A DNA stretch of 64,000 nt from the human T2T-CHM13v2.0 reference genome, Homo sapiens, in the NCBI RefSeq assembly GCF_009914755.1, contig NC_060935.1; one strand, given 5' to 3'. Below are positions 53,594 to 62,159 of this stretch, piece by piece (the first letter of the stretch is position 1; every line of letters starts with the position of its first letter). The position numbers and the translations under genes are program-made. The notes below the pieces were generated by a model. That model was given only the letters and a program-made list of their open reading frames with translations. It was not told the DNA's origin and did no database searches.

Positions 53594-56576
53594 AGGACTT
53601 TCTTTGTCATGGATGAACAGTATTTTGTTGTGCCATATTTTCTTTATCCGTTAATTTGTTGATGAACACTTAGGATGATTTCATATTGTGGCTATTGTGA
53701 GTAATGCTGAAATAAACATGCTAGTGTAGCTATTTCTTTGACATACTAATTTCATTTTCTTTAGATTTTTGTCCAATATTGGCATTCCTGGATCATACGA
53801 GGGTTCTATTTTTATTTTTTTTGGTGAAACTCCACATTGTTTCCATACCGTTTGTACTAATTTACATTCCAACAGTGTGTGGCAGTTACCTTTTCTTCAC
53901 ATCCTTGCCAATACTTACTTTTCATCTTTTTTGTCATAGCCATTCTAATAGGTGTGAGGTTGATATCTCATTGTGTCTTTCATTTGCATTTGCATGATTA
54001 TTACTGATGTTGAACTTGCTTATATTTTGATCATTTCTATATCTTCTTTTGAGAAACAACTATTCAGGTCCTTTGTTCATTTTCAAACTGGGTTTTTTTA
54101 ACTTGCTATTTAGTTTTTTTAGTTTCTGAGGTATTTTGGATATTAATCTCTTATCAGATGTATAGCTTACACATATTTTTTCCCATTCTGTAGGTAATGT
54201 TTTCACTCTTGGTTGTTTTCTTTGCTTTGACATTTGACATAATGCCATTTGTCTATTTTTGCTTTTGTTGCCTGTGTTTTTAGAAACATATCCAAAATAT
54301 AATTGCCCCAACCAATGTCATATAGATTTTCCTTATTTTTTTTCTAATAGTTTCATAGTTCTGGGTCTTACATTTAACTTTTTAATCTATTTTGAGTTGA
54401 GTGTTTATATGTTATAAGAAAACGGTCTAATTTCATTCTTCTGTATAAGGATATCCAATTTTCCCAACACGATTTATTGAGGAACTGTCTTTTTTTTTTT
54501 TTTTTTCAATTGTGTGCTCATGGATTTTTTTTGTTGAAAGCCATTTGTAAGTGCATGGATTTATTTCAATCTTCTCTATTCTGTTCCATTGGCCTATGGC
54601 CTGTTTTTATGCCAGTATCATGCTGTCGTTACCATAGCTTTGTGGTTTGTTAAAGTCAGGTAGTACAATGCCTCTAGCTTTGTTCTTTTTGCTCAAGATT
54701 GCTCTATTTGGGGTCTTTTATGGTTCTGTACAAATTTTAAGTTTTTTTCTATTTCTGTGAAGAATGCTATTGGTATTTTGATACAGATTGTGTTGAATCT
54801 GTAGATCACATTGGGTACAATGAAAATTTTAGCAATATTAATTATCCAATCCATTAGCATGGATTATCTTTTGATTTATTTTTGTCTTCAATATTTTTCA
54901 TCAATGTTTTATAGTTTTCAGTATAGAGATCTTTCACCTCCTTTGTTAAATTTATTACTAAATACTTGTTGCTGTTGTAAATAAAATTTGTTTTCCTCAT
55001 TTGCTTTTTCAGAGAGTTTGCTGTTAGTTTATAGAAGTGTTGCTGATTTTTTATGGTGATTTTGAATCCTGCAACTTTACTGAATTTATTTATTAGTTCT
55101 AACAGTTTTTGGTGAAGCCTCTACAGTTTTTTATATATAAGAAAATGTTGTCTGCCAACCAGGACAGTTTATCTGCTTCCTTTTCAATTTGGATGCCTTT
55201 TATTTCTTTCTCTTTCCTAATCATTCTGGCCAGGATCTCCAGTGCTATATAAAATAGAAATGACCAGACTAGACATCTTTGTCTTGCTGCAGTTTTAAAC
55301 TAGAAGTTTTCAACTTTTCCCTACTCTGAACGATTTTAGCTGTGGGTTTGTCATATATGGCCTTTGTTGTGTTAAGTTATTTCTGTACCTAATTTGTTGA
55401 ATGTTTTTTATCATAAACGATGTTGAATTTTGTCAAATGTATTTTCTGCGTCTATTAAAATTATCATATTGTTATCTTTCATTCTTTTAATGTAATATAT
55501 CCTGTTTACTCATTTACATATGTTGAAACATCTGTGAATCTCTGTGATGAATTCCCCTTGATCATGGTGAATGATCCTTTTAATGTGCTGTTGAATTTGG
55601 TTTGCTAATATTTTTTGAGGATTTTTGCATTTATGTTTGTCAGAGAGATTGGCCTGCAGTTTTCTTTTTTTGTAGTGTTCTTGTCTGGCTTTGGAATCAG
55701 GGTGATACCGGTCTTGGAAAATGAGCTTGGAATTATTCCCCAATTTTCAATTTTTGGAAAAGTTTGAAAATAATTGGTACTAGTTCTTCCTTAAATGTTT
55801 GGTACAATTCAGCAGTGAGGTCATCAGGTTCTAAGCTTTTTATTTAATTGAAGATTTTTTATTATTATTCAATCTCATTACACACATTGGTCTGTTAAAT
55901 TTTCTATTTCTTCATAATTCAGTATTGATAGGTTGTAGGTGTCAAATAATTTATCCACTTCTAGGTTGTCCAATTTATTGGCATATAATTGCCTCTTGTA
56001 ATCTCTTGTGTTTCTGTGATATGAATTGTAATGTCTCATTTTTTGTTGTTGTTGTTTCCGATTTTATTTACTTGGGCCTTCTGGCTTTTTTCCTCAGTTT
56101 AGCTAAAGGTTTGTCAATTTTGTCTATCTTTCAAAAACCAGCTCAGTTTCATTGATATTATCTTTCTGGTCTCCATTTCCTTCTGCTCAGATCTTTATTA
56201 CTTCCATCCTTCTACCAATTTGGGACTTTGTTCCTATTTTTCTGATTTCTTGAGGTGCAACATTAGGTTCTTGATTTGATAACTTTCTTCTTTTCTGCTG
56301 TAGCTGTTGATTGCCATAAATTTCCATCTTACTATTGCTTTTACTGAATCCCATAAGTGTTAGTATGCTGTGTTTCCAATTTTGTTTGTCCTAAGGAATT
56401 TCTAAATTTCCATTTAAATGTTTTTATTAACCCATTGGTTGTTCGGATAATGTTGTTTAATTTTTCTGTATTTGTGAATTTTTCAAAGTCCCTTCTGTTA
56501 CTGATTTCTAGTTTTATACCTTTGTTGTCAGAAAAAATACTTGATTAAATTTCAATCTTTTAAAATTTTTTTTTTT

Positions 56577-57461
56577 AGAGTTGAACAATATTAATTTAAT
56601 CTGATTGGCATTTGTAGACCACATCATCCAACAATAGCAGACCGCATATTATTTTCAGGTGCACAGAGAACATTTATTGAGATAGACCATATTATGGGCC
56701 ATAAAAACACATCACAATAAATTAGAGGGACTGAAGTCATGAGGAGAAGATATCAGAAATGAGTGAGGTTATATTACTACATATTCAACAGATATTACAA
56801 AGATAATAAAGAAATATTAACAACTTCATGCTTATAAATGCAATTACCTAGATCAAATGGACAAATTCCTTGAAAATCACAAAGCTCACTCAGGAAAAAT
56901 TGAGAACCTGAACAGTTTATATCAAAAAAATTAAATTTGTAGTTTAAAAACTTTACATAAAGAAACTGCTAGGCCCAGGTGGCTTTTCTGTTGAATTCTA
57001 CAGAAATTTAATGAAGAAATAAAACCAATTCTACTCAATCTCAACCAGAAAATTTAACAAGAGGGAATAATTGTCAACTCATTCTATGAATTCAGCATTA
57101 CTTTAATACCAAAACTAGACAGAGACACTAAAAGAAAATAAAACACAGCTCAGTATTTCTCATGAATATAGATGCAAAAATTTTTAACAAAGTTTAGAAA
57201 ATTGTGTGATATAAAAAGGATATATCATGACCAAGTGAAGTTTAGCCCAGGAATGCAGGGTTGGTTTAACATTTGAAAGCCAATCAGTGGAAATTACCAT
57301 ATTTACAGACCAAAAAAGAAAAAACATACTATCATCCCAACAGATGCAGAAAAGCATCTGAACAATTCTAACATCTATTCTTGATAAAAAGTCACAGCAA
57401 ATTAGGACTAGAAGGAAACTTCCTCAACCTGACCAAGAGTATCTACAAAATACCTGTAGTA
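56577..57461 (+). mobile_element. Ancient L1M ORF2 fragment, probably passenger DNA in a 3' transduction
   Basis: Degenerate EN and RT motifs (ATGGACAAATTCCTTGAAA, CCAGGAATGCAGGGTTGGTTTAACAT). It runs opposite to the host L1 and is bounded by T tracts. Confidence 0.8.
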
Positions 57462-61177: not shown

Positions 61178-62159
61178 TAAATTTTTTAAGACTTGTTTTT
61201 GTGGCCTTAGTAGCTATTCTGGAGAAACTTTCATGAGACACTGAGAAGAATGTGTATTCTAAAGCTGTTGGATGTGATGTTGCTTATATGTCTGTTACGT
61301 CTATTTGGTCTAGTGTGTAGTTTAAGTCTAATGTTTCTTTATTGATTTTCTCTCTAAATGATCTGTTTATTGCTGAAAGTGAGGTGTTGAAATCCTGCTA
61401 CTTCTATTGTAATGCAGCCTATCTCTCTCTTCATATCTATTTTATTTGCTTTATCTATTTAGGTGCCCTGATGTTGGGTGCATATATATTTGCAATTGTT
61501 ATATCTTCTTGCTAAATTGACCTATTTTACCTGTATATAATGACCTTCTTTGTCTCATTTTACAGTTTTTGACTTGAAGTCTGTTTTAGCTGATATAAGT
61601 TTAGCTACTGTTTCTTTGTTCTGGTTTCCATTTCCATGCAATATCTTAGTTTATCCTTTCACTTCTAGGCTATGTGTATCCTTACAGGTGAAGTGAGTTT
61701 CTTGTAGGCAACTTGTAGTTGGGTCTTCCTTTATCCTTTCAGCCACTGTACATCTTTGGATTGGACAAATCTAATCCATTTGAATTCAAGGTAAATATAG
61801 ATAGATAATAATTTACTACTGTAATTTTGTAAACTGTTTTGTAGTTGTTTTATCAGTTCTCTACTCTTTCTTTTTTTTCTTCTTTTGCTGCCTTTGTGGC
61901 TGATTTTTCTCTAGTGGCATGTTGTGATTATTTGCCTCTTATTTTTTGTGTATTTATTATAAAGTTTTGTTTCGTGATTACCACGAGGTTGATCAAAATA
62001 ATAGGTTAGTTTAAGCTAATAACAGCTTAACTTTGATTTTTTCTTCTAAAAAAAACACAGTTCTACATTTTACTCCACTCATCCCCTGATTTTGAATTTT
62101 TTATTTTACTACTTACAGCTTTTTATTTTGCATATTCCTTAAATATTATTGTAGCTGTT

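What the first reader, a model, noticed from the sequence alone, without database searches (positions are those of the whole stretch)
56562..61187. One TSD-bounded insertion with three poly(A) tracts: candidate serial 3' transduction
Seen on the minus strand, in order: L1 poly(A) (~57614-57645), antisense RPGR, A15 (57462-57476) preceded by variant signal AATATA (57491-57496), ~885 bp of old L1, and A11 (56566-56576) preceded by ATTAAA (56595-56600). The host L1MA resumes at 61188 with AAATTTTTT duplicated at a TTTT/AA endonuclease site. Inference: the element records its ancestry, from a source at RPGR to an intermediate copy in an old L1M to this locus. The TSD is low complexity, so support for exact ends is modest.
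Basis: partly seen in the sequence, partly recalled or inferred. Interest (0 to 1): 0.8.

Follow-up and report, generated by a model that had tools for sequence, protein, structure and literature searches.

The report
Two-step L1 transduction carrying RPGR exon
A dead, partly inverted L1 copy on chromosome 11 drags behind it two short pieces of DNA picked up at earlier stops on chromosomes X and 7, so it records two lost jumps of its ancestors; this kind of event is already known.

Summary
On the minus strand, one target-site duplication (AAAAAATTT, 11-12 bp with one T-run slip) at a canonical TT/AAAA site in an old L1 encloses six parts. These are a 5'-inverted L1PA (61177-59527 inverted, 59527-57646 sense), a patterned A-rich tail, a 137-bp tag, A15, an 885-bp tag and A11.

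The two tags map to different chromosomes of the same genome. Tag 1 matches chrX at 96.4% and has no other match in the genome. Tag 2 matches two paralogous chr7 copies at 96.7%, against 73% or less for the next best hits. Each tag ends 14-18 nt after a poly(A) hexamer. No sub-unit has its own duplication.

Serial 3' transduction is the best reading (about 0.68). Template jumping between polyadenylated RNAs is not excluded (about 0.2). No L1PA lies beside either donor today.

- Tag 1 is not intronic. It is the antisense of the RPGR coding exon for residues 10-52, plus 25 nt of intron, so the inferred source L1 sat inside that exon.
- The L1PA is twin-primed.
- The L1PA starts at 61177.

Two-tag L1 cascades and nested SVA transductions are in print, so this is a new member of a known kind, of modest interest.

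The parts
61178..61187 (-). Upstream copy of the target-site duplication (AAAAAATTTA, possibly plus the A at 61177) at the end of the host old-L1 flank. The site on the L1-sense strand is TT|AAAAAA.
   Evidence: L1PA similarity begins at 61177.
59527..61177 (+). Inverted 5' piece of the L1PA, 1651 bp of ORF2. It is antisense on the minus strand, so its L1 sense lies on the + strand.
   Evidence: window 61177->59527 aligns to L033 3153->1501 at 96-98%; alignments to other L1PA copies end at 59527.
57646..59527 (-). Sense 3' piece of the L1PA (end of ORF2 plus the 3' UTR). It starts at L033 position 3141, which is 13 bp before the end of the inverted piece (3153).
57614..57645 (-). First poly(A) tract, patterned (AAT and AAAAT units, four overlapping AATAAA hexamers).
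57477..57613 (-). Tag 1, 137 bp, equal to G000:C23:37727006-37727142 (+). It is the antisense of 112 bp of the RPGR exon coding residues 10-52, plus 25 bp of the upstream intron.
   Evidence: only 2 places in the genome; 5 mismatches in 137; 43 of 43 residues match PDB 4jhn_A.
57491..57496 (-). AATATA variant poly(A) hexamer, 14 nt before the end of tag 1. It is the only listed hexamer inside tag 1.
57462..57476 (-). Second poly(A) tract, A15, templated by neither donor. The last 4 A may belong to the chr7 donor (AAAATACTAC).
56577..57461 (-). Tag 2, 885 bp of old L1 ORF2 in antisense. It equals G000:C7:74077337-74078224 (-) and C7:73745681-73746568 (-).
   Evidence: (29 mismatches in 884, 1 gap column).
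56595..56600 (-). ATTAAA poly(A) hexamer, 18 nt before the end of tag 2.
   Evidence: One AATAAA and two ATTAAA further upstream in tag 2 were bypassed.
56566..56576 (-). Third A tract, A11. About 5 A are tail and about 6 A are the start of the downstream duplication copy.
56560..56571 (-). Downstream copy of the target-site duplication (AAAAAATTTTAA). The host old L1 resumes here.

Best explanation
This is one L1 retrotransposition event at chr11, by target-primed reverse transcription at a canonical TT/AAAA site inside an old L1. The template was a single long read-through RNA of the form L1PA - A tail - tag 1 - A tail - tag 2 - poly(A).

The inferred steps are:
1. An L1PA sat antisense inside the RPGR exon for residues 10-52 on chrX.
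2. Its transcript ran past the L1 signal and was cleaved 14 nt after a weak AATATA. It therefore carried 137 nt of flank.
3. That copy inserted full-length at a chr7 site (...GGC|AAAATAC...) in an old L1.
4. There, tag 1's weak signal had lost its downstream element. Transcription ran through it and through several hexamers, and stopped 18 nt after an ATTAAA, adding 885 nt.
5. That RNA was copied into chr11. A second priming event on the same RNA (twin priming) produced the inverted 5' piece, so the copy was dead on arrival.

Shown directly: the anatomy, the two separate donors, the single duplication and the twin-priming geometry. Inferred: both lost intermediates.
For: - Donors: tag 1 matches chrX only. 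2 of 2 candidates were scored and both are real: the window itself and chrX, at 96.4%. Tag 2 matches two chr7 paralogues at 96.7%, with the next best hit at 73% or less.
- The donors are not contiguous with each other.
- All segments share the L1 orientation. Each is followed by an A tract that its donor lacks, and each ends 14 or 18 nt after a poly(A) hexamer with a T/GT-rich donor sequence downstream.
- Only the whole unit has a duplication (a 9-bp exact word). The five sub-units tested share at most 6 bp, and those are A-runs or an A/T-only word. The host is continuous in 9 of 11 relatives.
- Similar divergence of the two tags (3.65% and 3.28%) and of the L1 body from its close relatives (92-98% identity) fits one period.
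- The inverted and sense pieces meet in L1 coordinates with a 13-bp overlap.
- The chr7 boundary reads TTTT/GC on the nicked strand.
- Literature: a two-tag L1 cascade has been described (PMC13009371, section 10, passage). Donor loci usually lack the L1 in primates (PMC4862182, section 14).
Against: - No L1PA lies within 28 kb upstream of the chrX tag, or within about 13.5 kb upstream of either chr7 copy.
- No sibling insertion carries tag 1 anywhere in this genome.
- The chrX boundary (...ACAGC|AGAATG, nicked strand TTCT/GC) is a poor endonuclease site.
- The source would have disrupted a coding exon of an X-linked gene. That target is rare a priori and presumably the allele was short-lived.
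- The start of tag 2 coincides, within 0-10 bp, with a junction between two old-L1 pieces on chr7. The model does not explain this.
- No other primate genome could be examined.
Confidence: 0.68

Rival explanations
1. Chimeric retrocopy made by template jumping. The L1 reverse transcriptase started on a polyadenylated chr7 RNA, jumped to the poly(A) tail of an antisense RPGR RNA, and then jumped to the tail of an L1 RNA (or of an L1 plus tag 1 read-through RNA). All of this happened in one insertion event.
For: - It explains why no L1 sits at either donor.
- It explains why the chrX boundary is not an endonuclease-type site.
- The AAAA at the chr7 boundary could be microhomology with a poly(A) tail.
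- One duplication is also expected under this model.
- Template switching by ORF2p is an accepted route to L1 chimeras (10.1101/2025.02.02.635956, passages).
Against: - In described L1 chimeras the foreign RNA lies 5' of a 3' L1 piece. Reverse transcription starts on the L1 RNA, in line with cis preference (passages). Here both foreign pieces lie 3' of a complete L1 end.
- It needs two jumps, each landing on a poly(A) tail.
- It needs two otherwise unknown antisense or repeat-derived polyadenylated RNAs, one of them using a weak AATATA signal. Read-through from an L1 promoter explains their transcription without extra assumptions.
- The first tail is patterned, as aged genomic tails are, while the other two are pure A.
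Confidence: 0.2
2. One read-through RNA joined at the RNA level. The source L1 lay elsewhere upstream on chrX (intronic, benign), and a donor just after its tail was spliced to a cryptic acceptor (..AACAGCAG|AATG) antisense in the RPGR exon. Alternatively the pieces were joined by RNA ligation.
For: - A TACTAAC branch-point-like motif lies about 20 nt upstream of the boundary, followed by AG dinucleotides.
- It removes the need for an exon-disrupting source.
Against: - It requires a splice donor within 1 nt of the end of the L1 tail.
- The tract before the AG is not pyrimidine-rich.
- No same-strand L1PA lies within 28 kb upstream.
- It does not explain the second junction.
Confidence: 0.04
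3. Two independent nested insertions. A retrocopy of the chr7 RNA (tag 2 plus A11) landed first, and an L1PA carrying tag 1 later inserted exactly at its 5' end.
For: Nested insertions are common in this repeat-rich window. Both parts end in A tracts.
Against: The unit L1PA plus tag 1 plus A15 has no duplication of its own; the longest word shared by its flanks is 4 bp. The unit tag 2 plus A11 shares only TTAAAA (6 bp, A/T only). The second insertion would have had to hit the exact first base of the first one.
Confidence: 0.03
4. Single-step transduction from one contiguous source locus.
For: This is the simplest model before any checking.
Against: Tag 1 and tag 2 lie on chrX and chr7. Each donor continues with unrelated sequence at the junction, and the A15 is in neither.
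Confidence: 0.02

Closest known systems
L1 3' transduction (Moran 1999; Goodier 2000; Pickeral 2000; seen only as references in PMC9311842; content recalled)
   Same: An L1 3' end with its own tail is followed by unique flank in the same orientation. A second poly(A) follows a downstream signal, and one duplication encloses the whole.
   Different: There are two tags from two chromosomes. No L1 is present at either donor in this genome.
Multigenerational L1 transduction cascade (PMC13009371, section 10, passage read)
   Same: The final insertion keeps the first tag from the original source and adds a second tag from the intermediate insertion.
   Different: That case is a reference L1, then a germline copy, then a somatic tumour copy, with both sources observed. 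This one is an old fixed germline copy (about 3.3-3.7% tag divergence) with both sources lost. Its first tag is a coding exon.
Nested serial SVA transductions (Ebert et al., preprint 10.1101/2020.12.16.423102, passage read)
   Same: Sequential mobilisations are recorded as nested transduced pieces flanked by poly(A) tails.
   Different: The element there is SVA, not L1, and the insertions are young and polymorphic.
Twin priming, i.e. L1 5' inversion (Ostertag and Kazazian 2001, recalled; mechanism described in the passage)
   Same: The inverted 5' piece abuts the sense 3' piece. The two are contiguous in L1 coordinates with a 13-bp overlap, and both lie inside the duplication.
   Different: Nothing unusual, except that it is combined with a two-tag RNA.
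L1 chimeric retrocopies by template switching or RNA ligation (Buzdin 2003 and Moldovan 2019, as cited in 10.1101/2025.02.02.635956)
   Same: Several RNAs of different origin lie in one orientation within one duplication.
   Different: In those chimeras the foreign RNA lies 5' of the L1 piece and has no poly(A) between the parts. Here the foreign parts lie 3' of a complete L1 end and each has its own A tract.

Membership tests
L1 3' transduction | Complete L1 3' end and tail followed by non-L1 sequence in the same orientation | tested here: met
L1 3' transduction | The tag ends in a poly(A) tract that the donor lacks, 10-30 nt after a poly(A) hexamer | tested here: met
   AATATA lies 14 nt and ATTAAA 18 nt before the tag ends.
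L1 3' transduction | One target-site duplication encloses L1 plus tag, at an endonuclease-type site | tested here: met
   The site is TT|AAAAAA.
L1 3' transduction | The tag maps to a unique donor locus elsewhere | tested here: met
L1 3' transduction | A full-length L1 lies immediately upstream of the tag at the donor locus | tested here: not met
   none within 28 kb (chrX) or about 13.5 kb (chr7) in this one genome. Absence is common for primate donors (PMC4862182, section 14).
Serial (two-generation) transduction | Two tags from different loci in series, each with its own A tract, the older one next to the L1 | tested here: met
Serial (two-generation) transduction | An intermediate copy (L1 plus tag 1) is present at the second donor | tested here: not met
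   (tag 1 occurs in only 2 places). Other haplotypes and other primates were not available.
Serial (two-generation) transduction | The 5' border of each tag is an endonuclease-type site at its donor | tested here: inconclusive
   chr7 reads TTTT/GC, which is acceptable. chrX reads TTCT/GC, which is poor.
Twin-primed (5'-inverted) L1 | Inverted and sense pieces meet in L1 coordinates with a small overlap or gap, inside the duplication | tested here: met
   the inverted piece ends at L033 position 3153 and the sense piece starts at 3141.
Template-switch L1 chimera | Foreign RNA lies 5' of a 5'-truncated L1 3' piece | tested here: not met
   the foreign pieces lie 3' of the L1. The definition comes from the passages.

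The most novel reading that the evidence does not exclude
The chr11 element may be the only surviving trace of an L1 insertion that once disrupted the RPGR exon for residues 10-52, which would have been a null allele of an X-linked retinal gene, in an ape ancestor. That short-lived, presumably harmful copy still launched a full-length daughter, which landed on chr7, and a granddaughter. If so, exon-disrupting insertions can act as source elements before selection removes them, and a coding exon was moved to another chromosome by L1.
Probability: 0.6. Interest if true: 0.45.

Novelty: new member of a known kind. Interest (0 to 1): 0.3.

Why it matters
This is a clean, fully resolved germline example of a two-generation L1 lineage, with both tags, three tails, one duplication and a twin-priming inversion. 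It is useful as a teaching or benchmark case for transduction callers.

Its first tag is most of a coding exon of RPGR. That makes it a natural instance of L1 moving exon sequence. It also implies a lost exon-disrupting source allele.

It has no evident function at chr11. No gene is annotated within 100 kb before the window. The exon copy lacks its splice donor and carries 3 amino-acid changes in 38 codons.

Tried and rejected
- Siblings carrying tag 1: none. The 137 bp occur at only 2 places in the genome.
- L1PA next to the donors: none in the 30 kb of chrX and the 2 x 20 kb of chr7 examined.
- RPGR exon 1: a recalled 5-residue motif was not found in the 1.9 kb beyond the tag, and there is no clear CpG island there. 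Calling this exon 'exon 2' therefore rests on recall.
- L1PA subfamily: not assigned, because no repeat library is available. Only identity to relatives could be measured (92-98%).
- Host subfamily ('L1MA'): not verified. Relatives are 75-82% identical.
- Literature on an RPGR exon copy on chr11: nothing relevant among the 10 titles listed, of 258 papers that held at least 3 of the terms (listing only). Szak 2003 is not held.
- Sub-unit duplications were tested and rejected.
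Full report
**What is there**

All positions below are read on the minus strand. An old L1 in sense orientation runs down to 61178. Then come, in order:
- an L1PA piece in antisense, 61177-59527;
- an L1PA piece in sense, 59527-57646;
- an A-rich patterned tail, 57645-57614;
- 137 bp of unique sequence, 57613-57477;
- A15, 57476-57462;
- 885 bp of old L1 in antisense, 57461-56577;
- A11, 56576-56566;
- the same host L1 again.

AATATA ends 14 nt before the end of the 137-bp piece, and ATTAAA ends 18 nt before the end of the 885-bp piece. 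The window holds 12 A/T runs of 11 or more bases, and two of them are these borders.

**One insertion, one duplication**

The 25 nt before 61177 and the 25 nt after the last A tract share AAAAAATTT. A shared word of 9 or more bases occurred in 5 of 2000 random pairs of 25-mers from the window.

With one T-run slip, the duplication reads AAAAAATTT(T)AA, 11-12 bp. It starts at TT|AAAAAA on the L1-sense strand, which is TTTT/AA on the nicked strand. That this is the canonical L1 endonuclease site is recalled knowledge.

I aligned both host flanks to 11 related old-L1 copies taken from the same genome. In 9 of 11 the two flanks map to adjacent positions that overlap by 5-20 bases. In the other 2 they are colinear without overlap. 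The host is therefore continuous apart from the duplication.

None of the five sub-units tested has a duplication of its own. The sub-units were: L1PA plus tail; L1PA plus tag 1 plus A15; tag 1 plus A15; tag 1 through A11; and tag 2 plus A11. Their longest shared words are 3-6 bp, and the 6-bp ones are an A-run and an A/T-only word.

**The L1PA is twin-primed**

Against a colinear L1PA copy (L033), window 61177->59527 maps to positions 3153->1501 in reverse. The sense piece starts at window 59527, which is position 3141 (the alignment ends also appear).

The two pieces therefore meet in L1 coordinates with a 13-bp overlap. This is the geometry expected of a 5' inversion by twin priming. It makes this copy dead on arrival.

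**Two donors on two chromosomes**

A search of the window's own genome with the whole post-L1 stretch scored 40 of 6111 candidates. Besides the window itself it gave:
- two chr7 places at 97% covering the 885-bp piece (C7:74077337-74078224 and C7:73745681-73746568, both minus strand);
- one chrX place at 96% covering the 137-bp piece (C23:37727006-37727142, plus strand);
- old-L1 copies at 73% or less.

The 137 bp alone match only 2 places in the genome, the window itself and chrX.

Global alignments give these figures:
- 5 mismatches in 137 bases (3.65%) for tag 1 against chrX;
- 29 mismatches in 884 bases (3.28%, one gap column) for tag 2 against either chr7 copy;
- 4 differences in 884 between the two chr7 copies, so they were one locus, or were homogenised, after the event.

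At the junctions the donors go their own ways. chrX continues after tag 1 with TTATAAC... and chr7 has unrelated old-L1 sequence before tag 2. Neither donor has the A tracts. The single-step, contiguous-source reading is therefore refuted for this genome.

**Tag 1 is an exon, not an intron**

Six RCC1-repeat exons lie on the minus strand of C23 between 37704854 and 37726530. They are the only C23 hits among the 136 matches listed.

The minus strand of the tag 1 donor translates into an open 43-residue stretch. It is identical, 43 of 43, to residues 10-52 of PDB chain 4jhn_A, 'X-linked retinitis pigmentosa GTPase regulator' (E = 3.5e-31).

I read the splice sites by eye in the sequences: acceptor tttgcag|AT and donor CCG|gttagt. 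On that reading, tag 1 covers 112 bp of this exon in antisense plus 25 bp of the upstream intron. It starts 14 nt inside the exon, counted from the donor end. By recall this is exon 2.

The copy in the window keeps the frame open, with 3 amino-acid changes in 38 codons. It lacks the exon's donor end.

**The sources are gone**

No L1PA-like sequence lies in the 28 kb upstream of the chrX tag. The only L1-like hits there are two old-L1 fragments (74% identity over 208 bp and 80% over 59 bp); the other hits are A-rich repeats. None lies in the 13.4-13.8 kb upstream of either chr7 copy.

In a survey of primate transductions, donor loci almost never held a full-length L1 (PMC4862182, section 14). 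Absence is therefore usual. An exon-disrupting copy would also be expected to be removed by selection (inference).

**Mechanism**

The best reading is two successive read-through and retrotransposition rounds, followed by the final twin-primed insertion.

Points in its favour:
- The L1 promoter explains why an antisense exon and an antisense old-L1 stretch were transcribed at all.
- Both tags end at proper cleavage distances from a hexamer, with T/GT-rich donor sequence downstream.
- Tag 1's signal is weak and would lose its downstream element once moved, which favours a second read-through (inference).
- The order of the tags, with chrX next to the L1, gives the order of events.
- The first tail is patterned, as aged genomic tails are, while the other two are pure A.
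- The L1 body is 92-98% identical to its closest relatives. That is in line with the tag divergence.

Points against:
- Both intermediates are inferred.
- The chrX border is a poor endonuclease site (TTCT/GC).
- A coding exon is a rare target.
- The start of tag 2 coincides, within 0-10 bp, with a junction between a 165-bp sense old-L1 piece and the antisense old-L1 piece on chr7. I cannot explain this other than by chance in a repeat-dense region.

**Rivals**

Template jumping among polyadenylated RNAs would also give one duplication and empty donors. However, described L1 chimeras carry the foreign RNA 5' of the L1 piece, because reverse transcription starts on the L1 RNA (passages of 10.1101/2025.02.02.635956). 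Here it would have to start twice on unknown non-L1 RNAs and land twice on poly(A) tails. I give it about 0.2.

The remaining rivals are weaker:
- A spliced or ligated read-through RNA, about 0.04.
- Nested independent insertions, about 0.03. No sub-unit has its own duplication.
- A contiguous single source, about 0.02. The donors lie on different chromosomes.

**Known or new**

L1 3' transduction is textbook. A two-tag 'multigenerational' L1 cascade is described in PMC13009371 (section 10, passage). [quoted passage not shown] (preprint passage).

This is therefore a new member of a known kind. It is an old, fixed, fully resolved example, and its first tag is most of an RPGR coding exon. I found no paper on this copy, but the search showed only 10 of 258 titles, and supplements of transduction catalogues were not examined and may list it.

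**Limits**

- No other primate genome, haplotype panel, repeat library or gene annotation for chr7 was available.
- The dating of roughly 10-18 Myr uses recalled substitution rates.
- The chr7 donors lie 332 kb apart and are 97.3% identical over 6.2 kb. Their gene context is unknown.

Noticed in passing
L012 6221-6387 and 5161-6210 (G000:C7:74072000-74081999); the same arrangement in L013: On chr7 the first base of tag 2 coincides, within 0-10 bp, with a junction between a 165-bp sense old-L1 ORF2 piece and the antisense old-L1 piece. No model explains why the transduced stretch starts there.
   Followed up: partly
L012 and L013 (G000:C7:74072000-74081999 and C7:73740000-73749999): The chr7 donor exists as two same-strand paralogues 332 kb apart. 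They are 97.3% identical over 6.2 kb but differ at only 4 of 884 positions inside the tag region. This looks like a segmental duplication. Its gene context was not determined.
   Followed up: partly
window 57477-57590, + strand: The copied RPGR exon keeps its splice acceptor (tttgcag|AT) and an open frame of 38 codons with 3 amino-acid changes. It lacks the exon's last 14 nt and its splice donor.
   Followed up: partly
window 57474-57479, minus strand: The junction of the tag 1 end (..TTTATT) with the A15 tract creates a new ATTAAA hexamer that neither donor has.
   Followed up: no
window 57646-58560, minus strand: This stretch of the L1PA is about 18 bp shorter than its relatives (915 bp against about 933 bp). 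The deletion appears to lie near 58370-58380. Stop codons are visible in the ORF2 remnant.
   Followed up: no
G000:C23:37718434-37718993: An old L1 fragment (74-80% identity to the L1PA) lies on the same strand about 8 kb upstream of the chrX tag. It is too diverged to be the source.
   Followed up: partly
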